Sequence record: PP430346
Direction: 5' to 3' (one strand)
Source: Escherichia phage vB_EcoM-LTH02
DNA: 64,000 bases
Positions 4,054 to 56,627 of this stretch are shown here, piece after piece; position 1 is the first letter of the stretch, and each line of letters starts with the position of its first letter. Under the pieces are notes generated by a model. The model searched no databases. It was not told where the DNA came from and saw only the letters and a list, made by a program, of their open reading frames with translations. The position numbers were made by a program, and so were the translations under genes.

Positions 4054-4274
4054 TCAATAACTTACAAAAAACTTTTAAAAAGATGTTGACAATCCCTCTT
4101 GACATTGGTAACTTTGTTCGAGGGGGTTATCTAAAAGGGATTAACTTAAAAGATTCTTTATAGATAGACTTAAAAAATTGCTTGCAATCAGATATCAAAA
4201 CAAGTAAATTACTCATCAACGGGGAGGCAATAACCTCCCTACTAAGTAAAGTCCTTAAACTAGGAGATTCTAAA

Positions 4275-5486: not shown

Positions 5487-5511
5487 AGCTCCTTTTCATA
5501 GGGGCTTTTTT
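5487..5511 (+). terminator. intrinsic terminator closing the early cassette
   Basis: Stem AGCTCC/GGGGCT with loop TTTTCATA followed by TTTTT; a second hairpin GGGGCTAAATAGCCCC sits at 5459-5474. Confidence 0.55.
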
Positions 5512-5977
5512 ACGTCTTATCGAATCTCTATACAATCCTTTCCCTTTCCTTCCCAGAATCTTACTAGACCTTAAAAGCAATAACTCTATAGCTTACTCTA
5601 TAACCTTTTATCAAATCAACTTAAATATAAGCCCATAACCCGAAAGGGAAGGGCAACCGTTTAAACGCTCTATAAAGCTCTATAACAGCCTTATCAACCT
5701 AACTTAAGGGATTGCATTAACTCACCCTTAAAAGCCCTTTATAAAGCTTCCTAGAGCCTTAAAAGAATCTTATAAGGGTGTAAGCTTTATCATCTCGTTA
5801 GCTATCTTGTGAACTACTAAAAATGGCTTGTTAGTGTCTTAAAAGTATGCTATAGGGGCTATAAAGTTACTCCAAAGTTACGTGAAAGGGGCTATAAAGT
5901 TACGTAAATGCTAGCCCCCTTAACATTTCTTTAACAATTTCTTAACAATCCCTACATAGTTATGCTTTTAAGGAACT

Positions 5978-7050
5978 TGTTAGCAACTTGTTAGCCCCTT
6001 GTTAAATCTTTGTTAAGACCACGTAAAAGCCTTGTAAGAGTCTTTGACATAGCCTTAAAAGCCCCTGTAAAGCCCTATAAATAGGTATCTGTACAGTTGG
6101 GGTGTAATTACTAGGAAGAGGCTTAAAAGAGCTTACAAAGAGCTATAGAGAGCTTTTAAGAGGGCTATTTAGAGAATCACTAAGAGGGAAAGGGAACGAT
6201 AAGAAAGAGATAGTGACCATGTTAATAGCTTGTTAAAAAGATTAAACACTTGTTAGAAACTTGTTAATTATCTTAACAAAATAACTCATAAAAATTAACT
6301 TGTTAGCTCTTGTTAGTCATCTGTTAAGAGACTATAAAGACCATGTAGCAACTGTTAAGAACTTGTTACAGCCTTGTTAGTTCTGTTAAGAGTCTGTTAA
6401 GACCTCTGAAGAGATGTTAAGAGGTTGAGAGAGTTGTTAAGAGATTGTTAATGATATTTTAAAATTCTGCAAAGGGGATGTTACAGGGATGTTAAGGGCT
6501 ACCAAGCAGATATACACCTTCTACAGATATTTTTGAGTTCCTTCAAAGACCCTAAAAAATGACTTGATAGTCCTATTTTATAAAAATTTTAAAATTCTGA
6601 ATAATTACCTAAACAGTCTTTTAAAAATACAGGCATAAACAGGCTTATAAGATACCTTGTTAATACCGTGTTAGACCTTGTGAGATAAGGTCTGTAAAGA
6701 TATTCCTGTTAAGTTTGTTAAAACAGTCTATATAGAGGCTTAGTAATACCTAGTGAACACCTATAGAGGGTAACATAGCTAACATAATGGGTTACTGTTA
6801 AGTAACACAGGTAACCTAGAGATTAAGAGGTGTATAGGGGCTTCTAAGAGGCTATAGAGAGATGGTTAAGGTGATTGTATAGGTTGTTAAGAAGGCTTGT
6901 TAGAAGGCTTGTTAGAGGGCTATTTAGAAGGTTTATACAGAAGGCTATTAAGACCACTAGATAGATACTAAGATACTATATAGTACTATATAACTATATA
7001 TAGAGAGTAAGCTTAAGAAGGTTGTTAAGAAGGATAGATATTTTATTCAC
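5978..7050. repeat. iteron-like array of TGTTA(A/G) repeats (more than 30 copies, one orientation, about 10-11 bp phasing)
   Basis: Copies at 6251, 6262, 6301, 6311, 6322, 6353, 6364, 6375, 6384, 6395, 6415, 6435, 6446, 6490 and further copies 5978-6030 and 6650-7050; spacings are 9-11 bp or multiples; no ORF above the track cutoff in 5581-7161. Confidence 0.7.
6968..7006. repeat. AT-rich block with three tandem ACTATATA units
   Basis: ATACTATATAGTACTATATAACTATATATAGAG; possible DNA-unwinding element next to the iteron array. Confidence 0.45.
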
Positions 7051-7161
7051 ATATGATGGTGACCCAGAGGTTGGGACAACCGATAAAATTTTATAAAAAT
7101 TATAAATTTCGTAAAATTTACTCAATAAAAAGCCCCCAATTAAGGAGGCTCTTAAGATATT

Positions 7162-7767
7162 TTAAATCAGTGTTTCCAGAACTGTCTTCAGTGATGACTT
7201 GGTTGTCTGATAAAAATGAGTAAATCCATTGTTGTTATCGAATACCTGCATCATGATATCATCTCCCTTGATTGGGTACACTCGGATATCATAGTGGAAC
7301 CCGTTAAAGACAGCAGAACCATTACAGAATGAACTAAAGTCATCCACTGAGATGTACTCTTCGTGACCTGTGATTTTTATACAAACACCTTTACTCGGTC
7401 TCTTAGGGTTGATATCTTCCATCACAGACATACTCTGTCCACCAAGAGATATCATAGTGACCACTTTACGGTTCTTCTGTCTAAAGTACATCTTAACTTT
7501 CTGTAAAGTATCTTCATAGAACGGATAAGACCTTTCTACAAAGATTCCTTCAAGTGGCTCTTTACCATTTTCAACTTCTCTGTTATGCCGTACTGCAAAG
7601 ATAATTTGTTCAAACCAGTCAAGATTTTCTTCGGATAGTGCTTCCCGAACATCATTCCAGTCAAGTACTAGGTAGTTACCTTCAACATCTTTTGAGTTAT
7701 CTTTTTTCATATCTATTACACCATTATCGTAAAACTTGGTAAGCTGGAACTGCAAACTTGTTGCCAT
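7162..7767 (-). CDS. hypothetical protein (201 aa)
   Basis: ORF track; ATG start verified; overlaps upstream ORF by 44 nt, so the true start may be the internal Met near 7710. Confidence 0.5.
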   Translation of the reverse strand: MATSLQFQLTKFYDNGVIDMKKDNSKDVEGNYLVLDWNDVREALSEENLDWFEQIIFAVRHNREVENGKEPLEGIFVERSYPFYEDTLQKVKMYFRQKNRKVVTMISLGGQSMSVMEDINPKRPSKGVCIKITGHEEYISVDDFSSFCNGSAVFNGFHYDIRVYPIKGDDIMMQVFDNNNGFTHFYQTTKSSLKTVLETLI

Positions 7768-8188
7768 TGTTCTTAATGAGGTCTTCTTCTGTTACTAAGA
7801 ATGTAAGACCAAACAAATGTAAATAGGTGCTATCACACTCAAATATCTTAAATAGGTATTTACCGTCATGATAAACAAATTCTACTACACCTTTTGCAAC
7901 AACCTCTCCAGTCTTGAAATCTTTAAGGCAGTATACATTACCAACTTTAGGAACTGTTTTCATCTCAGGTTCTTTTAGCTTCTCACCAACTTCTACATCA
8001 CCTAGTAAGTTAGAACTTTCAAAAGCTACATGTTGCATATAAGCCTCTGAGCATTCCCAGATAAAACAATGTACAAGAACCTTAGCTGCATGTCTTGAAC
8101 AATTCAACTTATCACAAATCTCTTTGTACATTTCATCTTTAGTTGAGTTATCAAGCATTGCTTTTTGAGCGACTTCTTTAATTTTCAT
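7724..8188 (-). CDS. hypothetical protein (154 aa)
   Basis: ORF track; ATG start verified. Confidence 0.5.
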   Translation of the reverse strand: MKIKEVAQKAMLDNSTKDEMYKEICDKLNCSRHAAKVLVHCFIWECSEAYMQHVAFESSNLLGDVEVGEKLKEPEMKTVPKVGNVYCLKDFKTGEVVAKGVVEFVYHDGKYLFKIFECDSTYLHLFGLTFLVTEEDLIKNNGNKFAVPAYQVLR

Positions 8189-8241
8189 TTCGCTACCTTC
8201 TAAGTTTCTACAAAGGGGCTATCAAGTAACCCCTCAAGTTA

Positions 8242-8466
8242 TTACTCAGACTTTTCAGCCTTCTTATCGGATTTCTTACTAGTCTTCTTCTCAGCTTTCT
8301 GTTCAGGTTCCTTCTCAGAAGTTTCCTTGATAATCATATCAAGAAGCTCTGATAAGTCACTCTTCAGTAGAGTAACAGGCTGCTCATTGTAGAAGTTTTT
8401 GTCAAGATAATCTTTGAACTCTTCAATAGAAGGAAATCCAAAAATTGGTACAGGTGTCTTAATCAT
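8242..8466 (-). CDS. hypothetical protein with lysine-rich C-terminus (74 aa)
   Basis: ORF track; ATG start verified. Confidence 0.4.
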   Translation of the reverse strand: MIKTPVPIFGFPSIEEFKDYLDKNFYNEQPVTLLKSDLSELLDMIIKETSEKEPEQKAEKKTSKKSDKKAEKSE

Positions 8467-8542
8467 TACTTAGTTTCTCCATAAGCATCTTTCAAGATTG
8501 CCTTGTTAATCATTTCAGCGATTGCAAAACGAACACATACAG

Positions 8543-9046
8543 CTATAATTGTAGGTTGCATTCTTTACTTACCTCTTCAAGTTTAACCTCAGAATCCTTA
8601 AGTCGTTTCTTATGAACTCTGAATCTCATTAGTGCTATGATGATACCAACTAAAGGGACAGAATACAAGTACCAAACATCATATACCTTTGCAGTAATCT
8701 GTGTAATGGTCAAGTCTTGAGCTATGGAACTGATTGCTGATACTGCCAGTAATGTTGCTAGGAAAAATGCCAGTACCATTACCGTACTTAAACAACCTCT
8801 GGCGTGGTGTTCATGCTTAATGCACTTATTCTTTTCGTCAACGACCCTGTTGTAGTCGTTTGTAAAGTCTCTGTAGAAAGCTTTCAAGTATTCTTTATTG
8901 TAGCCTTCAAAGCAACCTGTACCGTACCAATAATCACCACCAAAGTGTGCTATGATACCAGTATCTCCATTCGGTTTAGTTACTCTCAAAGATGTGTGAT
9001 GACGAGTATCTTGATAGTCTATTTTGTATCTTTCTTCGTAAATCAT
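8543..9046 (-). CDS. hypothetical membrane protein (two predicted TM helices)
   Basis: ORF track 8543..9076 begins at GTG; moved to ATG at 9046 (SD GAGGG upstream; abuts stop of upstream ORF); hydrophobic stretches LSTVMVLAFFLATLLAVSAI and YSVPLVGIIIALM. Confidence 0.5.
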   Translation of the reverse strand: MIYEERYKIDYQDTRHHTSLRVTKPNGDTGIIAHFGGDYWYGTGCFEGYNKEYLKAFYRDFTNDYNRVVDEKNKCIKHEHHARGCLSTVMVLAFFLATLLAVSAISSIAQDLTITQITAKVYDVWYLYSVPLVGIIIALMRFRVHKKRLKDSEVKLEEVSKECNLQL

Positions 9047-9276
9047 TTTCCAATCCCTCTCAATCGTTTGTTCCACTCAAGGTCAACAAGTCTTTGTAGG
9101 ACTTTCCCTCTAGGTGTTACACCTTTTAAATCTGCATCGTAGCAACGGTAAAAGTCACCTTCAGCGTGTTTACCATAGCATTTCCTGATATTCTGACTTC
9201 TACGATATTGTTCTAATAGAGACAGTCTGTAGTAATCTTCAACTGTAGTTAGTTTTTTCATTCTTTCACCACGCAT
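9043..9276 (-). CDS. hypothetical protein (77 aa)
   Basis: ORF track; ATG start. Confidence 0.45.
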   Translation of the reverse strand: MRGERMKKLTTVEDYYRLSLLEQYRRSQNIRKCYGKHAEGDFYRCYDADLKGVTPRGKVLQRLVDLEWNKRLRGIGK

Positions 9277-9344
9277 CTTCTTAAGAAACTAAAAAGGGAA
9301 CTACCTCTCGATAGCTCCCATCATAGTTAACATTGTATACTTGG

Positions 9345-9926
9345 TCAAGAGTATTTTTTAGGCAGTAATGCGCTACGCTTGTTGCTCTCTTCACTCAACA
9401 GTGCGATGAAGTCGTCACCTTTGCCTTTCCACGGGCTGAATGAAGGGATATGTTCACGAATAGCTTCAATCACTGTCTTCAGTGCTGTATTTTTCATCCA
9501 CCAGTCAGAATCTGCTGATGCTACAACATAGTACCCGCCATCATCAGTAAGGATTGGCTCTGAGATACATGGTGAAATAAGAGTGGTGATGATTGAGCCA
9601 TTGTTCATGTAGTATGTGCGTTTCATAACCTTTTCAAGAAGCTTGTGAAGGTCACCAAACAGTGTTACAAGCTCTTTATGGTCAATGTCTTTTTCGAGAT
9701 TTGCTCGATACTTCAAAAGTGCAGCATCAACTTCTCTGTCATTAAACTTGAAGTACTGGACTTCCTCAACAAGACAAACACTGATGTTGTTGACATTCAT
9801 AGTCAACTTGCAGACTTTTGCAGGAGAATTGATATTTGGTTGAAAAAGTGCAATACACCCTTCAATGTTTCCAAAATGTTGTACTAATGTCACTTGTGGA
9901 GTGATACTCTGTTGCTCTTCGGACAT
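9345..9926 (-). CDS. hypothetical protein (193 aa)
   Basis: ORF track; ATG start. Confidence 0.5.
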   Translation of the reverse strand: MSEEQQSITPQVTLVQHFGNIEGCIALFQPNINSPAKVCKLTMNVNNISVCLVEEVQYFKFNDREVDAALLKYRANLEKDIDHKELVTLFGDLHKLLEKVMKRTYYMNNGSIITTLISPCISEPILTDDGGYYVVASADSDWWMKNTALKTVIEAIREHIPSFSPWKGKGDDFIALLSEESNKRSALLPKKYS

Positions 9927-10270
9927 TACAGTTTCCTCATTAAATACTTTTTAAGTTGTGTGTTAGGTTTCTCAAAAACTTCTATAGAAGATATCTTGAC
10001 AGATTCACCACGCATACCTGTATGTTTGAAAATATAGTACTCCAACATACCTATATACTTTGCTGGTAAGTCATGCTTGACATACACCGTTACAGAATCT
10101 TCAAATTCAACAACCTTTGTACCATCTTTGTAGTTAAACTCTTTAGGATGGTCGTAGTTGTCGATATCATACATTAAAAAGAGTCTTTTCCGTTGCATAT
10201 CAAGCTTATTGGTTAAAGACTCTTTGATGTCTGAGAAGTTTTTGTACACTGTGACATGGAGCTTACTCAT
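9926..10270 (-). CDS. hypothetical protein (114 aa)
   Basis: ORF track; start overlaps the downstream gene. Confidence 0.5.
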   Translation of the reverse strand: MSKLHVTVYKNFSDIKESLTNKLDMQRKRLFLMYDIDNYDHPKEFNYKDGTKVVEFEDSVTVYVKHDLPAKYIGMLEYYIFKHTGMRGESVKISSIEVFEKPNTQLKKYLMRKL

Positions 10271-10556
10271 CGTTAAACTCTCTGACGAAGAAATAGTTGA
10301 CTTTATTATTGCCTACCATAAGGTCAAAGCAGGTATTCTCAAAAGGTTTGTTGTAGGCATCATATGAAGTGTACGTATCAGCTACTTGTTTAGTATTGAG
10401 CTTTTTACTTGATGGATTTAAGAGGCCACCATACAGTTTCTTTATAGCCTCTTCTACAACAGACCAGATAATTTCGTCAGTAATTTCTTCGTACAGGTCA
10501 AGTTCACGCTCTAGTGAGAAGTCACAAATAGGGAAAATAACCTGTACTTTACTCAT
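10263..10556 (-). CDS. hypothetical protein (97 aa)
   Basis: ORF track. Confidence 0.45.
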   Translation of the reverse strand: MSKVQVIFPICDFSLERELDLYEEITDEIIWSVVEEAIKKLYGGLLNPSSKKLNTKQVADTYTSYDAYNKPFENTCFDLMVGNNKVNYFFVREFNDE

Positions 10557-10951
10557 TAACGAATAACCTGTGAGACTTGAATTGCTTCAGTTACAGACAA
10601 ATCACCAACTTTCTCTTCTTTGATAAAAGTGAAGGTGAGTTCAACAGGCTCTTGCTCTTCTTGCTCAACCGGAATACCGTTAAGCTCATCAAAGATTGAT
10701 TGGGTAGTCCAGTCTTCCCCACCATCTGGATAGTGGATGGCATAAAGAGGGAACTCTAAATTATACCAAGCAAAAACAGGGCAACCATCTGCATCATCTC
10801 GGCATCTGTGGAGATATGTGTTTGTACCTTCAAAATGCAAATGGAGATTACCATTCTTCTCAAAGAGAAGAGCATCTTGCAGGTCTAGTTCCTCATTTTC
10901 GCTGTAACGGCTGACATCGACTTTAACGTGAATATGACTGTTATTATTCAT
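10556..10951 (-). CDS. hypothetical protein (131 aa)
   Basis: ORF track. Confidence 0.5.
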   Translation of the reverse strand: MNNNSHIHVKVDVSRYSENEELDLQDALLFEKNGNLHLHFEGTNTYLHRCRDDADGCPVFAWYNLEFPLYAIHYPDGGEDWTTQSIFDELNGIPVEQEEQEPVELTFTFIKEEKVGDLSVTEAIQVSQVIR

Positions 10952-11342
10952 AAAAACCTCTCTCTGCTTGTTCGATTTTTGCTTTTAGAACTTCACACCG
11001 TTCAATGTGATATCTGGCTTCATGTTCATGTGTCGCCAAAGTTCTTTCAAGAATGGTTTTATAGTAACCTGCAAGTTGCTCTCTTGTCAATGGGTTCTCT
11101 GAAATAATATCGAGACCACTTTCACCAAGAGTATTAAACTGCCCATGTTCATTTACATGATAAGTCTCAAACTTGAATAAACCGTTATTAGCAGATTCAA
11201 TAGGCGATAGTTCAACCAACTCAACAGTGAACATTGTGTGCACCCTATCACCAACTGTAACAATGTTACTTCCAATGATGCGTACAAGCGAACCATTACG
11301 AGTGTACTTAAAAGTCCCAAAGTCACTAGCCCAAAGCTTCAT
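10944..11342 (-). CDS. hypothetical protein (132 aa)
   Basis: ORF track; strong SD TAAGGAGAAAACT upstream of ATG. Confidence 0.55.
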   Translation of the reverse strand: MKLWASDFGTFKYTRNGSLVRIIGSNIVTVGDRVHTMFTVELVELSPIESANNGLFKFETYHVNEHGQFNTLGESGLDIISENPLTREQLAGYYKTILERTLATHEHEARYHIERCEVLKAKIEQAERGFYE

Positions 11343-11361
11343 AGTTTTCTCCTTAGAAAAT

Positions 11362-11383
11362 AAAAAAGGCTCCCGAAGGAGCC
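11362..11383 (-). terminator. intrinsic terminator downstream of the endolysin gene
   Basis: Hairpin GGCTCC-CGAA-GGAGCC followed on the minus strand by TTTTTT. Confidence 0.55.
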
Positions 11384-11393
11384 TATGAAGATA

Positions 11394-11858
11394 TTACTTT
11401 GGATATACACTGTCAAGATAAATGCCAGCTTCCATTCTACGTCTGTTTTTCAGGCCGTTTGAAGTGACCTTCTTACCTTTGACTGTGACCTTGTTCCACC
11501 ACTGCATAGCTTCTGCACAACCTACCTTGTTACCAGCATTGTGGCGCTTGATAAATGTAGAATCCTGCATAGCTGTGATACCGATGTTGTATGTTTCACT
11601 TACAAGTGCATCGAACTCGTTCTGAGAAGTTGGAACCTTGATAGCTTTATTCACTGCTGCAACGAACTTCTCAACATCTGCAAGAAGATACTGTTCAGCT
11701 TGTTCAGCAGTAATTTTCATACCCATCTTAACAGTTTTTCCGTCAATACGGATTGTACCATACCCGATTGTCGGGATTCCGGCAGAGTCTTCGTAAGCCT
11801 CTAACTTCAGACCTTCGAAGAACTTAATAGCTTCTAAACCTTTTCTTGAGAGTTGCAT
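11394..11858 (-). CDS. endolysin, T4-lysozyme-like muramidase (GH24)
   Basis: Catalytic-region signature EGLKLEAYEDSAGIPTIGYGT matches the Glu...Asp...TIGYG pattern of T4 e-type lysozymes; ATG overlaps stop of upstream gene (TAATG). Confidence 0.85.
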   Translation of the reverse strand: MQLSRKGLEAIKFFEGLKLEAYEDSAGIPTIGYGTIRIDGKTVKMGMKITAEQAEQYLLADVEKFVAAVNKAIKVPTSQNEFDALVSETYNIGITAMQDSTFIKRHNAGNKVGCAEAMQWWNKVTVKGKKVTSNGLKNRRRMEAGIYLDSVYPK

Positions 11859-12991
11859 TATGCCTCCCCTGCTGGGTTAACTGTAACTGTTGCCGCATTA
11901 GATGTTACAGAGCCACCTGCACCAGTAACTACACAGGTGTAGCTTCCTGCGTCAGCAGTGGTTGCACCTTCTTTGGTGTAAGTTGCAGCAGTTGCGTCTA
12001 GGATGTCTTCCTCACCCTTCTTCCACTGATAACCTGTCGCACCAGTAGCCACAACATTCAGCGTTAAGGTCTCACCTTCAGTGATTTCTTGATTGGTTGG
12101 CTGCTGAGTGATAACTGGCAAAGCATTTACCGTGATTGTTGCAGGGTTAGAAGTAACAGAACCTCCAGCACCAGTTACAACACAAGTATATGAGCCTGCA
12201 TCTGCTGGCAGTGCACCAGACTTGCTATAGGTAGCATTTGTAGCTGAAGGGATGTCAGAGCCATCTTTCTTCCACTGGTAACCTGTTGCACCTGTTGCAG
12301 TCACTGATAGACTGATGTTTCCACCTTCATTAATGGTCTGGCTAGAAGGTTGCTGTGTAATCACAGGCAGTGCGTTAACAGTAACCGTTGCTGCATCTGA
12401 GGTGACACTTGTTCCACCCTCTCCAGATACAACACAAGTGTATGAACCAGCATCAGAAGGTGCTACGGATTGTTTTGTGTAAGTTGCAGAAGTGGCACTG
12501 GGGATGTCCTCACCATCCTTCTTCCACTGATATCCAGTGGCGTTAGTTGCTAGAACACTTAAAGTAAGTGTGCCACCCTCATTGACTGTTTGGCCTGTTG
12601 GTTGCTGAGTAATTGCTGGTGGCTTAATAGCATCCTTCAGCTTAGCATTCAACATTGAGAACGGCTTAACTCTTGCCAACCATTCACAATACACTGTGTC
12701 AACGTCTTTACCATTGATGATTGCATACTGTAAATCCATGAAGAAATCAGCAGTCCTCATCTGTGCACCAACACTGTAAAGGAGTTCATCACTAAAAGGA
12801 ACTTTGTAGTCTGGTTTGTAGTCAAACTTCGCAACCTCTGCAATATCAGCTTCAGGCCAATATGAGCTATAGGTTAGCGGTAAAATAGCTTCTTGATATG
12901 TTCTAAAATCATATCTCTTACCAGCCTTTACATTTGCAACGAAACCTTTTACAAATTCTTTGAAGTCTGGGTAAGTCTTTGCTTTAATCAT
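11858..12991 (-). CDS. protein with N-terminal domain plus three tandem Ig-like (I-set-like) domains
   Basis: Three roughly 80-aa repeats each with P.ITQQP...EG..L.V.ATGATGYQWKK.G.DI..AT.ATY.K...DAGSYTCVV.G.GGSVTS..AT.TVN; matching roughly 255-bp DNA repeats at about 12010, 12266, 12518. Confidence 0.7.
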   Translation of the reverse strand: MIKAKTYPDFKEFVKGFVANVKAGKRYDFRTYQEAILPLTYSSYWPEADIAEVAKFDYKPDYKVPFSDELLYSVGAQMRTADFFMDLQYAIINGKDVDTVYCEWLARVKPFSMLNAKLKDAIKPPAITQQPTGQTVNEGGTLTLSVLATNATGYQWKKDGEDIPSATSATYTKQSVAPSDAGSYTCVVSGEGGTSVTSDAATVTVNALPVITQQPSSQTINEGGNISLSVTATGATGYQWKKDGSDIPSATNATYSKSGALPADAGSYTCVVTGAGGSVTSNPATITVNALPVITQQPTNQEITEGETLTLNVVATGATGYQWKKGEEDILDATAATYTKEGATTADAGSYTCVVTGAGGSVTSNAATVTVNPAGEA

Positions 12992-13359
12992 TTCTTTTTA
13001 GCCTCTAAACGTGCGTTTAATCTAAAATAGCCTTTATGTTGTGGAGACACATCACTAACAACAATGCCTTCAACTTTATAACCCTTACCAATTACATACT
13101 GGATATCCATAAGAAACGTACCAAGCCCAACAATGTGGAACATTGGGTATAGCAACTTATCTGAATCTGGGAGTTTAATTTCTGGGTTATAGGTGGGTTG
13201 TTCGGCGGTTGGTGTAATATCCTCTTCAGGCCATTTACTCATTCTCCATGTTAAAGGTGATGCAATAACATCGTTAAGATTGTATCTTTCACCATTCTCC
13301 ACGGAGTGGATATAGGATTGTAGGAAGCAATAAAAGTCTTTTGCACTCTTAGCCTTCAT
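12988..13359 (-). CDS. paralog of the N-terminal domain of the Ig-like protein
   Basis: Shared motifs AK..DF..F......V..G.RY, WPE.DI, SD.LLY, F.MD.QY.I, LNA.L with the first about 130 aa of 11858..12991. Confidence 0.55.
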   Translation of the reverse strand: MKAKSAKDFYCFLQSYIHSVENGERYNLNDVIASPLTWRMSKWPEEDITPTAEQPTYNPEIKLPDSDKLLYPMFHIVGLGTFLMDIQYVIGKGYKVEGIVVSDVSPQHKGYFRLNARLEAKKK

Positions 13360-13406
13360 TAAATATCCTTATAAACAGATAAAGGGGCATCAGCCCCTGT
13401 TTATAC

Positions 13407-13997
13407 TTAAGCTTTGGTCTTAAGTAGGTTCTTAAGTTTTTTGAGATTCATGCTCTCGTCAAACTTAAAACCAAATCCATTGACATAATCAATGAACTCG
13501 GATTTCTTACTAAGTGATAGTGCGTAACTCATATCAAAGTTATTACTTGTTTCTGCGTCTGGACTAGAGTTCACATCAAATGAAATTTCTGTAGGCTCTT
13601 GCTTGCTACTTCTCATATTATCAATCAATAGACAGGTGTAGTTCGCTGGATAGAAGTTAACACTCCCATCAACATACCCATACTTATTATTGTGAATAAG
13701 GCTGGAAAATACCTTAAGAAATGTTTCTGAGTCGTGGCATACAAGTTTGAATTGACTGCATTCCCCAAGAGCCACTAAAGAGTAAGGGCTTTCACTATCA
13801 ATGTCATAGTTTGGATTTGATGTTGTAACCGTCACACGCATCAAGTTATTAGCGATAGTCTTCTGCTTGAAAGAATTTGGGACATAGTGAAGACCTCTAT
13901 CACACTGATTAACTAACTCTTTCAATAGGTCATTTGCATATGGTGAATTAATTGATACAGAGCCATCACTATTATAATTAAAACTTACTGTTAACAT
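13407..13997 (-). CDS. hypothetical protein (196 aa)
   Basis: ORF track; ATG start. Confidence 0.5.
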   Translation of the reverse strand: MLTVSFNYNSDGSVSINSPYANDLLKELVNQCDRGLHYVPNSFKQKTIANNLMRVTVTTSNPNYDIDSESPYSLVALGECSQFKLVCHDSETFLKVFSSLIHNNKYGYVDGSVNFYPANYTCLLIDNMRSSKQEPTEISFDVNSSPDAETSNNFDMSYALSLSKKSEFIDYVNGFGFKFDESMNLKKLKNLLKTKA

Positions 13998-14224
13998 TTT
14001 TCAGTTCTCCTGCGATTTATGATTTTGCTGCAATAGAGAAACGAAGTAAACTCACTGGAAGAAACCATTAAGTGTTGTTCACTAGATTGAGCCATTGCCC
14101 TGAAATACATTCCAGTCAAAGCATCGTAGTGACTATTCTTTCCAATTGAGGTTATATAGCCATGACTCTTTGCAGTTTTATATAAATCTATAATATCTGC
14201 GATTTCTAATTGGGAACTACACAT
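13991..14224 (-). CDS. hypothetical protein (77 aa)
   Basis: ORF track; ATG start. Confidence 0.4.
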   Translation of the reverse strand: MCSSQLEIADIIDLYKTAKSHGYITSIGKNSHYDALTGMYFRAMAQSSEQHLMVSSSEFTSFLYCSKIINRRRTEKC

Positions 14225-14466
14225 AGATAATCCTCTTGTCTTCTGTAATTTTGAAAGAACAGGTACAGACCAATTTCAGAGGATGAATAGTAGAGTAACT
14301 CTACCCTTTTTGATTCCTTACAGTGATTGGTATTTTTACCTTTCTTCGGGTTGTTTGATTTTCTCATTAAGTCTCCTTTGTAGAACAAGGCAGACCTACA
14401 GCTTTAAGTAAGATGGTACAGTAATCCATACAACAAGTCAAGAACTATTGCAAGTTAAAAAAGTTG

Positions 14467-14490
14467 TTGACAAAGTACTTGACAAGGTGT
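14467..14490 (+). promoter_or_regulatory. conserved tandem-TTGACA motif TTGACAAAGTACTTGACAAGGTGT (copy 1)
   Basis: 23 of 24 identical to 56431-56454; both copies sit at minus-to-plus strand-switch regions 120-170 nt upstream of the first plus gene; TATAAATA at 14496-14503. Confidence 0.5.
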
Positions 14491-14616
14491 AGGCTTATAA
14501 ATACTTAGAAGATAACTTAAAAGGTTCCTCTAAAAAGGCTATTTAAACAGATATCTTTCTGGATATCTATCTTTTATCTTAAAAGCCTTTTAAGAGGTCT
14601 TATAAGAGGCATACCA

Positions 14617-14988
14617 ATGAAAAACAGAACAAACAAAGGCCAGTTTAAAAAAGGCCAGTCTGGAAACCCATCTGGAAGACCAAAAGGCTCTCGTAACAAA
14701 AGCTCACTCGTAAAAGCTCAACTGACCATTGATAATTCTGCTGAGTTCGCTGCAAAGCTGTTTGAGGCGATTGTTACAAGGGACGCGGCTAAGCTTGCAG
14801 AGTTCGGGTTAAACACAGATGACGTAACCATCAAGAGTATGATTGAGGTCGGTAAAACTATCTTTACTCACTCAGCAGGTGAGATGAAAGCACTTGCAGC
14901 AGACACTAAGAAGGCTCCTGATAATGGTGGTCAACAACAGACAGATAACAAACCAACGTTCTCTGCTGTAGCGACTCTCAAAAAATAA
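14617..14988 (+). CDS. hypothetical protein with N-terminal basic motif GQSGNPSGRPKGSRNK
   Basis: ORF track; SD AAGAGG 8 nt upstream of ATG. Confidence 0.55.
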   Translation: MKNRTNKGQFKKGQSGNPSGRPKGSRNKSSLVKAQLTIDNSAEFAAKLFEAIVTRDAAKLAEFGLNTDDVTIKSMIEVGKTIFTHSAGEMKALAADTKKAPDNGGQQQTDNKPTFSAVATLKK

Positions 14989-15000
14989 TTTTAAAAGGTG

Positions 15001-15035
15001 TTGACAGACTCTACAAAGTTGCTCTAAAGTCTGTC
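15001..15035 (+). promoter_or_regulatory. promoter (TTGACA-17/18-TAAAGT) overlapped by an 8-bp palindrome
   Basis: TTGACA 15001-15006; inverted repeat GACAGACT (15003-15010) / AGTCTGTC (15028-15035) could be an operator. Confidence 0.45.
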
Positions 15036-15069
15036 ACATCAAACAACAAATGAGAGAAGAGAGTAAAAT

Positions 15070-16485
15070 ATGAGCGAGTTATTTAAACATGCGCACCTTC
15101 ATGCAGGTCGAACTGAAAATGGTGCTGTAAACCATACTTCATCAATGTCTGCTCTGGTAGACTTCTACAAAGCCGCTGGCTCAAGCCGTAGTAATGTAGA
15201 AATCTTACCAGACCTGTTCTACAAAGCTTTGCGTGAGGATGTTGATGTTGCAGTTCGTATTTTACTGCATATGCGAGATGTACGAGAAGGTATGGGTGAG
15301 CGTAAAGCTTTCCGAACTGTTTTACTTCAAGCGATTGAAGATAAGTTTTTAGAGCCTACACAGGTTCTTCGCATTATGGATAAGATTGTAGAACTTGGTC
15401 GTTTTGATGACTTCAAAATCTTCATAGGTACTCGTTTTGAGACAGATGCCTTCAAACATTTAGAAGCAGCATTACTAGACCCTGCAACAGCAGGTTTAGC
15501 AGCTAAGTGGTTACCACGAGTAAAACCACGCCACAAACAGTTTGTAAAACGTTTCTGTAAGTTTGCAAACTTAAGCGAGAAAGAGTACCGCACACTGTTA
15601 TCTGCACTGTCTGATACGGTTGAGCAAAAAATCTCTGCTAATGAGTTTGGTAAGATTGACTACAGCAAGATTCCTTCACTCGCTGCTGCACGTTACCAAA
15701 AGCTCTTTAACCGTAAAGATGGGGAACGTTACAAAGCTTATATCGAGTCACTCTCAAAAGGTGAGGCTAAGATTAACGCTGGTGCTGTTTACCCATACGA
15801 TGTGATTAAATCTATTAAGTATGGTAATGCAGATGTTGCTAATGAGCAGTGGAAAGCACTTCCAAACTGGATGGCAGAAGGTGAAAACATCTTGTGTATG
15901 ACTGATGTTTCAAGCTCAATGTCTTGGGTGAATCTTGGCTCAATTACTGCCCTTGATATTGGTGTATCACTTGCCTTATATGTAGCAGAACGCAATACAG
16001 GTTGCTTTAAAGATGAGTTAATGGTCTATTCAACAAACCCTCATTTCATTGAACTGAGTGGTGATTTACGAAACCGTCATCGTCAGGTAATGCGTCATGT
16101 TGAATATGGTTCAACTAACTTACAAGCAGCTTTTGACCGTATTCTTGAGATAGGTAAGAGAAACAACTTGACTCAGAAAGATATGCCAAGTAAGCTTATC
16201 ATCTTCTCCGATATGGAGTTCAATCAGGTTGATGGAGCTAACGGTCGTACAAACTTTGAAGCAATTCAGAGTAAGTACAAAAAAGCTGGATATGAGATGC
16301 CACAACTAGTATTCTGGTACTTAGCAAACCGTAATGGTACTTGCGAAGTGTCTGTTAAGGATAATGGTGTAGCAATGGTATCAGGGTTCTCTCCAGCCAC
16401 TTTAAAAGCTCTGCTTGGTGGTGAGAAGTTTGACCCAATCAGCGTAATGCTCAAAGCAGTAATGATTGACCGTTACATCTGGTAA
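15070..16485 (+). CDS. vWA-domain protein with MIDAS motif, possibly Ro60/TROVE-like
   Basis: 471 aa; MIDAS D-x-S-x-S in ILCMTDVSSSMS followed by a vWA-like C-terminal region; N-terminal helical region with TENGAV...SALVDFY; gene lies immediately upstream of the tRNA array. The vWA call is from sequence; the Ro60/TROVE assignment is from my memory of the family and its position, not a search. Confidence 0.55.
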   Translation: MSELFKHAHLHAGRTENGAVNHTSSMSALVDFYKAAGSSRSNVEILPDLFYKALREDVDVAVRILLHMRDVREGMGERKAFRTVLLQAIEDKFLEPTQVLRIMDKIVELGRFDDFKIFIGTRFETDAFKHLEAALLDPATAGLAAKWLPRVKPRHKQFVKRFCKFANLSEKEYRTLLSALSDTVEQKISANEFGKIDYSKIPSLAAARYQKLFNRKDGERYKAYIESLSKGEAKINAGAVYPYDVIKSIKYGNADVANEQWKALPNWMAEGENILCMTDVSSSMSWVNLGSITALDIGVSLALYVAERNTGCFKDELMVYSTNPHFIELSGDLRNRHRQVMRHVEYGSTNLQAAFDRILEIGKRNNLTQKDMPSKLIIFSDMEFNQVDGANGRTNFEAIQSKYKKAGYEMPQLVFWYLANRNGTCEVSVKDNGVAMVSGFSPATLKALLGGEKFDPISVMLKAVMIDRYIW

Positions 16486-16495
16486 AAAGTTTTAA

Positions 16496-16527
16496 AAAGG
16501 GTATTGACAATGTGTTTGATACCCTTT
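16496..16527 (+). promoter_or_regulatory. hairpin (AAAGGGTAT/ATACCCTTT) after the vWA gene with an embedded TTGACA
   Basis: 9-bp inverted repeat enclosing TTGACA at 16504-16509. Confidence 0.4.
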
Positions 16528-16594
16528 AATATGTTCTACATAGAAACGAAATGAGAGCTTTTCTAAGATACTGAAAAATATTTTAAAAAAGTTC

Positions 16595-18022: not shown

Positions 18023-18051
18023 TTGACATTGAGATGTGACCACTTTATAGT
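18023..18051 (+). promoter_or_regulatory. internal promoter in the tRNA region (TTGACA-17-TATAGT)
   Basis: TTGACA 18023-18028, 17-nt spacer, TATAGT 18046-18051; about 200 nt non-tRNA leader follows before tRNA-Arg. Confidence 0.6.
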
Positions 18052-21625: not shown

Positions 21626-21686
21626 GCCCTGCTATAAGTATTCTTCCTTTCGCTACCGAAGAGTATTTTTAGACAGGGCTTTTTTA
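21626..21686 (+). terminator. intrinsic terminator after the tRNA array
   Basis: GCCCTG ... CAGGGC stem followed by TTTTTT; a second hairpin GACGGT-CTCTGT-ACCGTC plus TTTTTT lies at about 21752-21775. Confidence 0.55.
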
Positions 21687-21810
21687 CAGAGTTATACTTT
21701 ATAAGAAGACTTATACAGTATGTCTCTGACGTACATTGTGGTTTCTCCTTGACGGTCTCTGTACCGTCTTTTTTAAGGGGAAACATGGTTAATTATTTGG
21801 AGAAAACATA

Positions 21811-45607: not shown

Positions 45608-46507
45608 TTATTTACCTACTGACAAAGGTGCTTCAATCTTTCCTGCATGTTGGTAATTGTTAATACCACCGATAAAGTCACTTGCAGTGAGATGTTTTAA
45701 GTCACTTAAAGTGTTAAGCTGTAAACCAATCTCAAAAGTCGGTGCATGAAACTCTTCATTGTTCATCAGTTCATAAACCTGCTTCATATGATTCTGATAA
45801 ATCTGAGTATCTCCAAAAACACCTATCAAGTACCGTGGAGTGTATCCAGTCATCTTACAAAGAACTTCCAGAATAAATCCATAAGATGCAATATTAAACG
45901 GAAGTCCTAAAAAGGTGTCTACAGAACGCTGATACCATTGTAAGTCAACTTCACCCTCGTTAGTGATATAAATCTGAAACAGAACATGACAAGGTGCTAG
46001 AGCCATTGAGTTTGCTGCAATATCTGCTGCATTCCAAGCATTAACAAGCATGTAACGGTCTGTGATATCACCCTTCATCTTCGTTACTAAGGTCTCTAAC
46101 TGGTCTACAACACAGCCGTTATGACCTTCAAAGTTTCTCCACTGAACCCCATAAATCCTTCCACCTGCATCTTCTAACCAATCTTGCTCAGAAGAGTAAT
46201 TAGAGCTTAACCAGCGTTTAAAATCATCTGACCAGATTGTCCAACGTTCACCATCATTTTCACCCCAAGTACGGTAACGGAGTTCACCAAGCTTATTCTC
46301 ACCGTTCAGGAACCATAAAGCTTCCCCAATAACTTGCCGTGTAAACACCTGTTTAGATGTTAAGAGAGGGAAACCAGTTCGCATATCAAAACGAAACTGA
46401 GGTGGAGCAAATGCAGAGATAACATCTCCAGTTCGTGTAGTACGCAGTTCACCAACTGATAAAACATGGTTCAGGATATTTTTGTAACTTGAATCTGCTT
46501 GTGACAT
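45608..46507 (-). CDS. thyA: thymidylate synthase
   Basis: Active-site region ALAPCHVLFQIYI and DTFLGLPFNIASYGFIL match conserved ThyA motifs. Confidence 0.9.
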   Translation of the reverse strand: MSQADSSYKNILNHVLSVGELRTTRTGDVISAFAPPQFRFDMRTGFPLLTSKQVFTRQVIGEALWFLNGENKLGELRYRTWGENDGERWTIWSDDFKRWLSSNYSSEQDWLEDAGGRIYGVQWRNFEGHNGCVVDQLETLVTKMKGDITDRYMLVNAWNAADIAANSMALAPCHVLFQIYITNEGEVDLQWYQRSVDTFLGLPFNIASYGFILEVLCKMTGYTPRYLIGVFGDTQIYQNHMKQVYELMNNEEFHAPTFEIGLQLNTLSDLKHLTASDFIGGINNYQHAGKIEAPLSVGK

Positions 46508-46508
46508 A

Positions 46509-47827: not shown

Positions 47828-47840
47828 AATTCATCACCTA

Positions 47841-48200: not shown

Positions 48201-48201
48201 A

Positions 48202-48501
48202 TTAATCTGCCAACCTTAAATTAAAATTAACACCAAATTTTTCACATACTTCCAACATAAACTCAAGAGAGACATTACCAGTGAGGTTGATTATGTTGGA
48301 TACACGAGCCTGAGAGATACCACAAATTTTAGCAACTTGCTCTTGAGAAAGACCTCTGGATTTAATCTCTCTCTTAAAACGATGTGCAACGAAGTCTCTC
48401 ATTTCGTCTACATCCATTGGACAAATATAACTCTCCATTTCAGCCTCTCTGTCAGCCTCCCAATCATCTTGTGGAGCATAAGGGTCAAAAACCTCATTCA
48501 T
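48202..48501 (-). CDS. helix-turn-helix (XRE-like) DNA-binding protein
   Basis: LSQEQVAKICGISQARVSNIINL helix-turn-helix; track start is TTG at 48531, moved to ATG at 48501 with SD GGAAGAAG. Confidence 0.6.
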   Translation of the reverse strand: MNEVFDPYAPQDDWEADREAEMESYICPMDVDEMRDFVAHRFKREIKSRGLSQEQVAKICGISQARVSNIINLTGNVSLEFMLEVCEKFGVNFNLRLAD

Positions 48502-48706
48502 CTTTCTTCTTCCGTTTTCGTGAAGTGTCAATCAATGAATCTATGTTTGTAGCCCTAACCTTTTCACGTTCATCGTTAAGATAATCATCAAGAGCCTTTT
48601 CAATCTGTGAATCATCTTGACAGATAACTGTAAAGACTGTAAAGCCGTCTGTATCGTCAATTATCTTACCATAACCGCTTCTGGGATGTAACTTTTTAAG
48701 AGCCAT
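48494..48706 (-). CDS. hypothetical small protein (70 aa) directly upstream of the HTH gene
   Basis: ORF track; ATG start; 3' end overlaps the HTH gene start. Confidence 0.45.
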   Translation of the reverse strand: MALKKLHPRSGYGKIIDDTDGFTVFTVICQDDSQIEKALDDYLNDEREKVRATNIDSLIDTSRKRKKKDE

Positions 48707-48707
48707 A

Positions 48708-50053: not shown

Positions 50054-50055
50054 AA

Positions 50056-50661
<606 letters not shown>

Positions 50662-51058: not shown

Positions 51059-51065
51059 GCTGCTC

Positions 51066-51094: not shown

Positions 51095-51100
51095 AACTTT

Positions 51101-52201: not shown

Positions 52202-52202
52202 T

Positions 52203-52757: not shown

Positions 52758-52767
52758 CTTGAACACC

Positions 52768-56370: not shown

Positions 56371-56430
56371 TTTTACTCCCTCTAAAATCATTAACCTCAT
56401 ACATTACTGCAAAAAATTATAAAAAGCAAG

Positions 56431-56454
56431 TTGACAATGTACTTGACAAGGTGT
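56431..56454 (+). promoter_or_regulatory. conserved tandem-TTGACA motif TTGACAATGTACTTGACAAGGTGT (copy 2)
   Basis: 23 of 24 identical to 14467-14490; at the DNA polymerase (minus) to plus-gene strand switch. Confidence 0.5.
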
Positions 56455-56627
56455 TAATCTTTGCGAAGTGGGTTTTTACTTAAAAGGTTACTTAACAGTT
56501 TAACTATACAGATACTTTAAAACTCTTAAAAGATTATTTAATAGCTTTTAAAAAGCTTTAAAGTATAACGTATAGAATACGTTAAGATAAGAGATTAAAA
56601 CTTAATAGTTACTTAAAAGAGGCTTAC

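What the first reader, a model, noticed from the sequence alone, without database searches (positions are those of the whole stretch)
14467..14490. 24-nt tandem-TTGACA motif conserved at both minus-to-plus strand-switch regions
TTGACAAAGTACTTGACAAGGTGT at 14467-14490 and TTGACAATGTACTTGACAAGGTGT at 56431-56454 differ at one base. Both lie upstream of the first plus-strand gene after a minus-strand block. Neither gives a clean 17-bp spacing to a good -10 element, so the motif may be a regulator binding site or a specialised promoter rather than a plain sigma70 promoter.
Basis: seen in the sequence. Interest (0 to 1): 0.45.

Follow-up and report, generated by a model that had tools for sequence, protein, structure and literature searches.

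The report
Phage promoters with a doubled −35 box
The repeated 24-base motif is the core of host-RNA-polymerase promoters that start this Felix O1-like phage's two rightward gene blocks, and it carries a strictly conserved second copy of the −35 box inside the promoter spacer, a design that also occurs in unrelated phages and has not been described.

Summary
The two 24-mers sit at 14467-14490 and 56431-56454 and differ at one base; none is expected by chance. The window is a Felix O1-like myovirus.

The motif is the −35 and spacer part of a sigma70-type promoter. An A-tract precedes box 1 (TTGACA). A TAnnnT hexamer follows after 17 nt at site 1 (TAGGCT) and 18 nt at site 2 (TGT-TAATCT). About 12 promoters in the window share this frame.

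Box 2 lies inside the spacer, at about −24 to −18. In 11 natural variants per site, both boxes and the T, A and T of the −10 never change, while the 6-nt gap varies freely. A third copy lies at 4086-4114.

Tandem boxes also occur in Moogle-, Susp-, Hafnia- and Erwinia-phage relatives. At the two strand-switch sites the Yersinia and Erwinia phages have a single box on the same core promoter. Marine T4-like phages conserve the same design.

Box 2 coincides with the published Z-element position of T7 A1 and A2. In this subfamily it goes with weak −10 hexamers.

Best reading: an UP/−35/box 2/−10 early promoter in which RNA polymerase itself reads box 2. No transcription start has been mapped, so the role of box 2 is inferred.

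The parts
14457..14466 (+). A-tract (AAAAAA) plus GTTG just upstream of box 1, in the position of an UP-element proximal subsite
   Evidence: The same tttAAAAAGnTg context precedes about 10 other TTGACA-N17/18-TAnnnT sites in the window and in relatives. The UP-element assignment is an inference from established knowledge.
14467..14490 (+). Motif copy 1: box 1 TTGACA (14467-72, the −35), free 6-nt gap (14473-78), box 2 TTGACA (14479-84, in the spacer at about −23 to −18), then AGGTGT
   Evidence: Both boxes are invariant and the gap is variable in 11 distinct natural variants (Fisher p = 5e-5).
14490..14495 (+). −10 hexamer TAGGCT, 17 nt from box 1
   Evidence: Orthologous variants are TAGGCT, TAGCCT, TAAGTT and TAGTGT: T, A and T are fixed and the inner bases are free.
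14501..14503 (+). Predicted transcription start (inferred, not mapped)
   Evidence: Lies 6-8 nt downstream of the −10. No TSS data were found in the literature.
14515..14523 (+). ACTTAAAAG element at about +13, the start of a 115-nt AT-rich leader (14502-14616) rich in CTWWAWAG repeats
   Evidence: The same element lies 47-48 nt from box 1 at both sites. It is conserved as CTTAA(A/C)AG in Hafnia, Yersinia and Erwinia phages.
14413..14441 (-). Candidate leftward (divergent) promoter TTGACT-N17-TACCAT for the minus-strand block
   Evidence: Found by the consensus scan. The underlying sequence ACAGTAATCCATACAACAAGTCAAG is conserved in all variants.
56421..56430 (+). A-tract (AAAAA) plus GCAAG upstream of box 1. 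Its complement TTGCTT (56424-56429) doubles as the −35 of the leftward promoter.
56431..56454 (+). Motif copy 2: box 1 (56431-36), gap (56437-42), box 2 (56443-48), then AGGTGT with TG at 56452-53
   Evidence: Boxes are invariant and 4 of 6 gap positions vary in 11 variants (p = 5e-3).
56455..56460 (+). −10 hexamer TAATCT, 18 nt from box 1, preceded by TGT (an extended −10, TGn)
   Evidence: Variants are TAATCT and TAGTCT, and the TG is kept in all. The annotators of phage AYO145A marked the same span as a promoter by pattern matching.
56478..56486 (+). ACTTAAAAG element at about +12. The predicted TSS is about 56467 and the leader is 161 nt to the ATG at 56628.
   Evidence: The TSS is inferred.
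56401..56429 (-). Candidate leftward promoter TTGCTT-N17-TAATGT for the DNA polymerase block
   Evidence: The −10 varies as TAATGT, TAGGGT and TAGTGT (TAnnnT kept) and TTGCTT is invariant in the variants. The DNA polymerase start at 56370 follows the PGAP annotation of BPS17W1.
4077..4114 (+). Third tandem-box promoter: AAAAA-GATG-TTGACA(4086)-ATCCCTC-TTGACA(4099)-TTGG-TAACTT(4109). The gap is 7 nt, box 1 to −10 is 17 nt, and there is a TGn.
   Evidence: In BPS17W1 it reads TTGACA-ATACCCA-TTGACA-TTGG-TAATGT: the boxes are kept and the gap differs. It is followed by a 154-nt leader containing CTAAAAGGG and ACTTAAAAG before the ATG at 4275.
16504..16532 (+). Near-tandem family member: TTGACA-ATGTGT-TTGATA-CCCTT-TAATAT, with the same 6/6/5 geometry and 5 of 6 bases in box 2
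18023..18051 (+). Family member with GTGACC at the box 2 position (7/6/4 geometry), followed by TATAGT
   Evidence: Sequence. It fits the hexamer pattern nT(A/G)AC(A/C) that I derived from the T7 comparison.
48202..48531 (-). The only annotated phage DNA-binding regulator (Cro/C1-type HTH_3, 99 aa). It was considered as a reader of the boxes and is not supported.
   Evidence: Pfam HTH_3 at 4e-11; Sigma70_r4 at 20.8 bits, below the 24.1 cutoff. It is restricted to Felixouna-, Moogle- and Suspvirus and absent from the tandem-box Hafnia phage.

Best explanation
The 24-mer is the −35-to-spacer segment of a strong sigma70-type promoter recognised by unmodified host RNA polymerase. These promoters fire the phage's two rightward transcription units from the two strand-switch regions. 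A third copy lies at 4086. The anatomy is: an A-tract in the UP-element position, box 1 TTGACA as the −35, a 17- or 18-bp spacer, and a weak TAnnnT −10 with a TGn at sites 2 and 3. That part is shown by sequence and comparative evidence. Box 2 is a second perfect TTGACA inside the spacer, at about −24 to −18. I infer that RNA polymerase itself reads it as an extra core-promoter contact. It sits at the position of the Z-element, which is sensed through the beta-prime zipper. Its identity to the −35 consensus leaves open that sigma region 4 also reads it. I infer that its role is to help open-complex formation and so compensate for the weak −10. This would make these promoters UP/−35/Z/(TG)/−10 'über' early promoters, like T7 A1 and A2 and the T4 early promoters.
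For: Box 1 as the −35:
- The same A-tract, TTGACA, N17/18, TAnnnT frame is found at about 12 non-coding, gene-sense sites in the window and at 28 sites in four Ounavirinae genomes.
- Orthologous promoters in the Yersinia and Erwinia phages have only one box, with the same spacing, the same −10 type and the same downstream CTTAACAG element.

The −10 hexamer:
- T, A and T are invariant and the inner bases vary in 11 variants per site.

Selection on box 2:
- It is invariant in all variants while the gap varies.
- Five of 28 promoters carry a perfect box 2, against 0.1 expected from shuffled spacers.
- It is kept in the Hafnia phage with gaps of 4 and 5 nt, and in the Erwinia phage at other promoters.

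A universal reader:
- The same architecture is conserved in marine and freshwater T4-like phages: at least 120 loci against 18 for a control with box 2 reversed.
- When that family was re-collected using only a downstream anchor, all 61 members kept both boxes.
- These phages lack the Felix HTH regulator.

The Z-element position:
- T7 A1 reads TTGACT-N6-CTAACC-N5-GATACT, the same 6/6/5 geometry as site 1. T7 A2 has GTAACA at that place.
- The published Z-element (AACCT, AACAT; −22 to −18) overlaps that hexamer. It acts with Thermus, E. coli and Bacillus RNA polymerase. It matters most when the −10 is weak and can replace the −35 when the −10 is strong (PMC3173786).
- Tandem-box promoters in Ounavirinae have weaker −10 hexamers than single-box ones: mean 3.25 against 4.12 matches of 6, one-sided Mann-Whitney p = 6e-4.
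- In phage Melnitz, box 1 has decayed to TTGCTT while box 2 is perfect and sits next to a TGn-extended −10.
Against: - No transcription start, footprint or promoter assay exists for any of these sites. The TSS positions are inferred.
- Published Z-elements are loose A/C-rich pentamers, not TTGACA. A loose element does not explain why all six bases of box 2 are invariant.
- The distance from box 2 to the −10 floats between 4 and 7 bp.
- In the T4-like family the −10 hexamers are strong, so 'compensating a weak −10' is not general.
- The −10 comparison uses few, phylogenetically related promoters.
- The enrichment in viral contigs is dominated by a few homologous families: at least 12 clusters against 7 for the control.
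Confidence: 0.55

Rival explanations
1. Box 2 is a second docking site for sigma70 region 4, used after initiation. Once RNA polymerase has moved 10-13 bp, region 4 re-binds box 2 and causes an early promoter-proximal pause. That pause could load an elongation or antitermination factor, which the many intrinsic terminators in these long units would require.
For: - Box 2 is exactly the −35 consensus and is offset 10-13 bp from box 1.
- Sigma region 4 bound to a −35-like element is reported to cause an extra pause at +14/+15 of the phage 82 PR' promoter (PMC3326312).
- An intrinsic terminator (21751-21775), and upstream of it a long hairpin followed by a T-run (21626-21685; seen by eye, not reported by the scan), precede the structural genes.
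- The Felix O1 paper states that read-through of terminators is unexplained.
- A conserved element lies at +10 to +22 in all lineages.
- The Z-element itself enhances sigma-dependent pausing.
Against: - There is no −10-like partner 16-18 bp downstream of box 2: TACTTA, AAGTGG, GGGGGT and TTGTAG (worked out).
- No Q-like antiterminator is annotated.
- Site 3 heads only three genes.
- The single-box Yersinia and Erwinia orthologues carry the same downstream element without box 2.
Confidence: 0.15
2. The two boxes form a direct-repeat operator for a trans-acting protein, either the phage's Cro/C1-type HTH protein or a host factor. This protein would shut off or activate these three promoters and so provide temporal control.
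For: - The spacer is a classic operator position.
- Only the three promoters that head major units carry perfect box 2 copies.
- The phage encodes one HTH_3 protein with a weak, sub-threshold similarity to sigma70 region 4.
- How early transcription is turned off in Felix O1 is unknown.
Against: - The HTH protein is found only in Felixouna-, Moogle- and Suspvirus. Tandem boxes also occur in Hafnia and Erwinia phages and in T4-like phages that lack it.
- The spacing between boxes varies from 4 to 7 nt, which is awkward for a fixed dimer.
- HTH_3 proteins normally bind inverted repeats, not direct repeats.
- Nothing beyond the bare −35 hexamer is conserved.
Confidence: 0.12
3. There are two overlapping sigma70 promoters 12 bp apart, each box serving as the −35 of its own −10.
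For: The annotators of related phages chose different boxes at the two sites: box 2 plus N15 plus AATACT at site 1, and box 1 plus N18 plus TAATCT at site 2.
Against: Box 2 has no conserved −10 partner at N16-18 at any site or in any lineage. AATACT at N15 is not conserved: it reads AAACAC in Moogle and Suspvirus.
Confidence: 0.05
4. The tandem-box promoters are origin promoters. Transcripts into the long AT-rich untranslated leaders would form R-loops that prime replication, as at T4 ori(uvsY)/ori(34) or the T7 primary origin. This is not exclusive of the best explanation.
For: - They sit at the two strand-switch points, where cumulative GC skew has its minima.
- They are followed by 115-160-nt AT-rich non-coding leaders.
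- The T4-like counterpart is a conserved strong promoter that encodes nothing and points antisense.
- An Erwinia copy fires into a large non-coding region.
Against: - GC skew here simply follows transcription direction.
- Site 3 is not at a strand switch.
- Nothing ties box 2 specifically to replication.
- No origin has been mapped in this phage group.
Confidence: 0.1

Closest known systems
T7 early promoters A1 and A2 with the Z-element (beta-prime zipper contact; Yuzenkova et al. 2011, PMC3173786)
   Same: These are strong phage early promoters for host RNA polymerase with an upstream A-tract. The geometry is identical: −35, 6-7 nt, a hexamer, 5 nt, −10. The functional Z-element at −22 to −18 overlaps the hexamer that corresponds to box 2. 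The reported behaviour fits the weak −10 hexamers here and the Melnitz variant: the Z-element helps when the −10 is weak and can replace the −35.
   Different: The T7 hexamers are CTAACC and GTAACA, not TTGACA. The published element is described as loose, whereas box 2 is an invariant, perfect −35 consensus.
T4 early 'über' UP/−35/TGn/−10 promoters (Hinton 2010, PMC2988021)
   Same: They carry multiple stacked recognition elements for unmodified host polymerase, which let the phage outcompete host promoters straight after infection. The review notes 'additional regions of consensus' of unknown role.
   Different: The T4 −35 is GTTTAC-like with a strong −10. No second −35 copy in the spacer is described. 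Felix O1-type phages have no known Alt, Mod, AsiA or MotA.
−35-like elements engaged by sigma70 region 4 in early elongation (lambda and 82 PR'; PMC3326312 and the references it cites)
   Same: A second −35-type hexamer near a phage promoter is read by the same sigma domain and has a regulatory outcome.
   Different: In those cases the element works together with a −10-like pause element in the transcribed region and with a Q antiterminator. Neither is found here.
Lambda CII / P22 C1 activator sites (TTGC-N6-TTGC direct repeats straddling the −35)
   Same: It is a direct repeat of a TTG-containing unit within a weak-−10 phage promoter. This resemblance comes from my own knowledge and from a mention in PMC4837284.
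   Different: The repeat unit, the period (10 bp against 10-13 bp) and the position all differ. No CII homologue is present, and the Felix promoters already have a perfect −35.

Membership tests
sigma70 −35/−10 promoter | −35 hexamer close to TTGACA | tested here: met
   Box 1 is a perfect TTGACA at all three sites and in all relatives.
sigma70 −35/−10 promoter | −10 hexamer (TAnnnT minimum) 16-18 bp downstream of the −35 | tested here: met
   N17 TAGGCT, N18 TAATCT and N17 TAACTT. T, A and T are invariant across variants.
sigma70 −35/−10 promoter | Transcription starts 6-8 nt downstream of the −10, dependent on sigma70 holoenzyme | not testable with these tools
   No TSS mapping was found in the searchable literature. 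Published promoter calls are pattern-based.
UP-element-containing promoter | A-rich tract at about −46 to −38 | tested here: met
   AAAAAA(G) lies 4-5 nt upstream of box 1 at all three sites and in most family members. Function is inferred.
Extended −10 (TGn) promoter | TG at −15/−14, one base upstream of the −10 hexamer | tested here: inconclusive
   Met at site 2 (TGT-TAATCT) and site 3 (TGG-TAACTT). At site 1 the TG abuts the hexamer (GTG-TAGGCT), one position off.
Z-element (beta-prime zipper spacer element) | Located in the spacer at about −22 to −18, roughly 4 bp upstream of the −10 | tested here: met
   Box 2 ends 4-7 bp upstream of the −10. It has the same 6/6/5 geometry as the T7 A1 hexamer that contains AACCT.
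Z-element (beta-prime zipper spacer element) | Sequence resembling AACCT or AACAT | tested here: inconclusive
   The aligned pentamer is GACAA, TGACA or ACAAG. The shared pattern is nT(A/G)AC(A/C). The published consensus is undetermined.
Z-element (beta-prime zipper spacer element) | Contributes when the −10 is weak and can substitute for the −35 when the −10 is strong | tested here: inconclusive
   There is indirect support only. Tandem-box promoters have weaker −10 hexamers (p = 6e-4). The Melnitz variant has a decayed box 1, a perfect box 2 and an extended −10.
Z-element (beta-prime zipper spacer element) | Effect depends on beta-prime zipper residues (E. coli Y47/R48) | not testable with these tools
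   This needs in vitro transcription with mutant RNA polymerase.
Operator of a Cro/C1-type HTH regulator | Dyad-symmetric site, and co-occurrence of the site with the regulator gene | tested here: not met
   The site is a direct repeat. The regulator is absent from Hafnia, Erwinia and T4-like phages that carry tandem boxes.
T4 MotA-dependent middle promoter | MotA box (a/t)(a/t)TGCTT(t/c)a centred at −30, plus MotA and AsiA genes | tested here: not met
   There is no MotA box in the motif. No RNA-polymerase modifiers are known in Felix O1 and none is annotated.
Sigma70-dependent promoter-proximal pause / Q-loading site | A −10-like element in the initial transcribed region, correctly spaced from the −35-like element | tested here: not met
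   Box 2 plus N16-18 gives TACTTA, AAGTGG, GGGGGT and TTGTAG. No conserved TAnnnT is present.

The most novel reading that the evidence does not exclude
A perfect −35 hexamer placed at about −24 to −18 is a distinct, RNA-polymerase-read core promoter element, a 'second −35'. It would be either the natural consensus of the still undefined Z-element or a hand-over site for sigma region 4. Unrelated phages would have adopted it independently to make promoters strong or controllable. Examples are Felix O1-like phages of enterobacteria and T4-like phages of marine and freshwater bacteria. If so, natural phage sequences would define an element that biochemistry has so far described only loosely.
Probability: 0.3. 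Interest if true: 0.7.

Novelty: new variant of a known kind. Interest (0 to 1): 0.5.

Why it matters
How Felix O1-type phages start and time transcription at their two divergent regions has been an open question since the 2010 genome paper. That paper found no shared sequence there. This analysis assigns both regions, and a third site, to one promoter design with testable start sites. It also shows that a second −35 hexamer in the spacer is under strong selection in several phage lineages, at the position of the poorly defined Z-element. That provides a natural, conserved sequence for testing what RNA polymerase reads in the spacer. It also offers a compact design rule for strong or tunable promoters. 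If box 2 proves inert with pure polymerase, it becomes a lead to an unknown regulator.

Tried and rejected
- Two overlapping promoters. I tabulated hexamers 15-18 nt after box 2 at every site and lineage and found no conserved −10 partner, so I rejected this.
- HTH operator. I profiled the only annotated regulator by tblastn and scanned the syntenic Hafnia genes against Pfam. Co-occurrence fails.
- Phylogenetic profile for proteins shared only by tandem-box lineages. It gave only a DUF7338 protein and a 66-aa ORF with no DNA-binding signal. This was uninformative.
- Other sigma factors or host factors (sigma54, sigma32, sigma28, CRP, FNR, PhoB, LexA), checked by eye against consensus sequences from memory. 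None fits. This was not a formal test.
- BoxA-like antitermination signal for the downstream CTTAA(A/C)AG element. The resemblance to lambda and rrn boxA is partial. The element is multi-copy and also abundant in a non-transcribed-looking region, so I did not pursue it.
- Rfam searches of the window (gathering threshold), of the site 1 leader and of the T4-like element (E-value up to 1). Only tRNAs and noise were found.
- GC skew as an origin indicator. It merely follows gene direction.
- Tandem boxes as the general early promoter of the Melnitz lineage. This is not the case: 0 of 33 sites.
- Literature. No TSS mapping exists for Felix O1-like phages. Two key papers on −35-like pause elements (PMC3058920, PMC3274365) are not held.
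- Correction. I first called the 123-aa ORF next to the T4-like element UvsY. PHROG gives it no known function.

Full report
**Observation.** The window is a Felix O1-like myovirus (Felixounavirus). A 3-kb stretch around the finding is 98.5% identical to Salmonella phage BPS17W1 and matches 252 phage records. No other match with up to 3 mismatches exists in the window, and shuffles give none. The gene layout is as follows:
- + strand genes to about 5450
- a 1.6-kb non-coding stretch
- a minus-strand block at 7162-14388
- a + block at 14617-45571, holding 26 tRNAs and then the structural genes
- a minus-strand block at 45608-56400, holding replication genes
- a + block from 56628 onward

So both copies lie in divergent intergenic regions, as reported. 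These correspond to the gene 40/41 and 96/97 junctions of Felix O1. The 2010 genome paper calls their transcription unexplained and states that no shared sequence was found there (PMC3185647).

**What the motif is part of.** I took a census of TTGACA (up to 1 mismatch), N16-18, TAnnnT sites in non-coding DNA on the gene-sense strand. It reveals one clear family: tttAAAAAGnTg-TTGACA-N17/18-TAnnnT. Members lie at 2045, 4086, 14467, 15001, 16504, 16595, 18023, 56431 and 61266 on the + strand, and at 49164, 51093 and 53664 on the minus strand. Box 1 of the motif, with its A-tract, fits this frame at both sites:
- Site 1: TTGACA-N17-TAGGCT (14490-95).
- Site 2: TTGACA-N18-TAATCT (56455-60), preceded by TGT, which is an extended −10.

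Box 2 therefore lies inside the spacer. A third tandem pair lies at 4086/4099: a 7-nt gap, then TTGG-TAACTT at N17 from box 1. A complete relative has exactly these three pairs and no more. Earlier annotators marked promoters here by pattern only and chose different boxes at the two sites.

**Phylogenetic footprint.** I collected natural variants by anchoring on downstream sequence, so the boxes were not forced. This gave 11 distinct sequences per site from Felixouna-, Moogle- and Suspviruses.
- Both boxes are invariant.
- The 6-nt gap varies at 6 of 6 positions at site 1 and 4 of 6 at site 2 (Fisher p = 5e-5 and 5e-3).
- The hexamer at N17/18 varies only in its inner positions. It reads TAGGCT, TAGCCT, TAAGTT or TAGTGT at site 1, and TAATCT or TAGTCT at site 2. 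This is the classic signature of a −10 element.
- The near-identity of the two gaps (AAGTAC and ATGTAC) is specific to Felixounavirus. In Moogle the gaps are TTCCTC and AATCAC; in Suspvirus they are AATGAC and ATTCAC.

**More distant relatives.**
- The Hafnia phage SarahDanielle has tandem boxes at both strand-switch sites, with gaps of 5 and 4 nt. Box 1 stays 17 nt from TACTCT and TAATGT.
- The Yersinia phage P778 has single boxes: TTGACA-N17-TAAAGT and TTGACA-N17-TGG-TAATGT.
- Erwinia phiEa104 has single boxes at the two junctions: N16 TAGAAT and N18 TACATT. It has tandem-box promoters elsewhere, at 16494 and 2390, both with 6/6/5 geometry.

So box 1 plus the −10 is the ancestral core promoter. 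Box 2 is an add-on whose place in the spacer floats by a few bases. Over four genomes, 5 of 28 A-tract promoters carry a perfect box 2, against 0.1 expected from shuffled spacers.

**Who reads box 2?**
- Box 2 has no consistent −10 partner 16-18 nt downstream, which rules out a second overlapping promoter.
- The phage's only annotated regulator is a 99-aa HTH_3 protein. It is confined to Felixouna-, Moogle- and Suspvirus. It is missing from the Hafnia phage, including the syntenic genes.
A control with box 2 reversed gave 18 hits.
- Most of these hits are one conserved element in marine and freshwater T4-like phages, relatives of Pelagibacter phage Mosig and Methylophilales phage Melnitz. The element lies just upstream of the late sigma gene g55 and points antisense.
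- When that family was re-collected by a downstream anchor only, all 61 members kept both boxes, while the gap, the 5 nt after box 2 and the inner −10 bases varied.
- In Melnitz itself, box 1 has decayed to TTGCTT while box 2 is perfect and sits 6 bp from a TGn-extended TATATT.

A reader common to such different phages and hosts is most simply RNA polymerase itself.

**Comparison with known elements.** Yuzenkova et al. defined the Z-element at −22 to −18, about 4 bp upstream of the −10 (PMC3173786). It is sensed through the beta-prime zipper and is active with Thermus, E. coli and Bacillus polymerase. It contributes alongside the −35 when the −10 is weak and can replace the −35 when the −10 is strong. 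Its consensus is undetermined.

T7 A1 reads TTGACT-taaagt-CTAACC-tatag-GATACT. This is the same 6/6/5 geometry as site 1, and its Z-element AACCT falls on the hexamer that corresponds to box 2. T7 A2 has GTAACA at that place. In line with the published behaviour, tandem-box promoters in Ounavirinae have weaker −10 hexamers than single-box ones: 3.25 against 4.12 matches of 6, p = 6e-4. The Melnitz variant looks like a −10/Z promoter.

One thing this does not explain is why the hexamer is an exact, invariant −35 consensus. That keeps open a role for sigma region 4. Sigma region 4 is known to engage extra −35-like elements in early elongation (PMC3326312).

**Status of the claims.**
- Shown by sequence and comparison: the motif is real, conserved and part of a sigma70-type promoter frame, and box 2 is under selection and recurs in other lineages.
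- Inferred: - Not found in the searchable literature: any experimental mapping.

**Verdict.** Its interpretation is partly right: this is a specialised promoter, but it is a sigma70 promoter with correct spacing. The finding is a new variant of a known kind, of moderate interest.

Noticed in passing
window 5500-7160: A 1.6-kb non-coding stretch lies where the + and minus blocks converge. It is packed with short repeats. TTGTTA(A/G) occurs 22 times, often in direct arrays with an 11-12-nt period. TGTTAAGA occurs 11 times there, out of 22 in the window, against about 4 expected for the whole window. CTWWAWAG occurs 23 times. It looks like iterons or a protein-binding array. It could be an origin, a packaging region or a nucleoid-like binding region.
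   Followed up: partly
window 14502-14616, 56467-56627, 4121-4274: The three tandem-box promoters are followed by long (115-160 nt) AT-rich untranslated leaders. CTWWAWAG-type repeats are about 19-fold enriched there, including the inverted pair CTTAAAAG-C-CTTTTAAG. The leaders fold somewhat better than shuffles (z = −2.2 to −2.9). Single-box promoters have short leaders. The first repeat, (A)CTTAA(A/C)AG at about +12, is conserved even in Yersinia and Erwinia phages and partly resembles boxA.
   Followed up: partly
window 21626-21685 and 21751-21775: Two hairpins, each followed by a T-run, lie directly upstream of the structural gene block, which starts with the 66-aa ORF at 21811 and the terminase large subunit. 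The scan tool reports only the second as terminator-like; the first I saw by eye. The census found no family promoter between 18433 and 44934. How late genes are transcribed (read-through, antitermination or an unrecognised late promoter) is unexplained.
   Followed up: partly
window 295, 1553, 2348, 2680: A second promoter family has TTTACA-N17-TAnnnT embedded in about 57-bp repeats. The spacer and −10 lie inside a GGGGCTTA...TAAGCCCC hairpin. These are the 57-bp repeats noted in the Felix O1 paper. Promoter and hairpin overlap.
   Followed up: no
window 16495-16535: The promoter at 16504 lies inside a hairpin (GGGTATTGACA...ATACCC) that the Felix O1 paper lists as a terminator. The promoter and the terminator overlap just upstream of the tRNA array.
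   Followed up: no
L077 8701-8773 and about 80 other IMG/VR loci (for example L117, L129, L144, L150): In marine and freshwater T4-like phages, a strongly conserved tandem-box sigma70-type promoter sits in the roughly 70-bp gap between a 123-133-aa ORF of unknown function (downstream of uvsW) and the late sigma gene g55. It points antisense, away from g55. It encodes no protein and matches no Rfam family. It could be an antisense or interference device that times g55 expression, or an origin promoter.
   Followed up: partly
L012 506-520 (Yersinia phage P778): At the site 1 equivalent, the single −35 box is part of a perfect palindrome TGTCAAG-A-CTTGACA. This gives back-to-back −35 boxes for the two divergent directions.
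   Followed up: no
Erwinia phiEa104 (NC_015292) 16494, in locus L075: A tandem-box promoter (TTGACA-TTCTAC-TTGACA-GGGGC-TAAAGT) fires from the end of the last + gene into the phage's large non-coding region. This suggests a non-coding transcript.
   Followed up: no
window 14499 (hit H80, Salmonella phage Si3 NC_041922): The Si3 record begins 9 nt after the end of motif copy 1, next to the predicted start site. This is probably an arbitrary assembly cut, but it was not checked against physical ends.
   Followed up: no
window 53636-53664 (minus strand): A single-box promoter just downstream of the DNA polymerase gene carries the same 11-mer as box 2 plus its flank (TTGACAAGGTG), followed by N17 TACCTT.
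   Followed up: no
window 14617-16485: The first two genes after site 1 are a DUF5681 protein and a 471-aa protein with DUF2828, DUF7788 and a sub-threshold vWA match, annotated 'RNA-binding protein' in related records. They lie directly upstream of the 26-tRNA array.
   Followed up: partly
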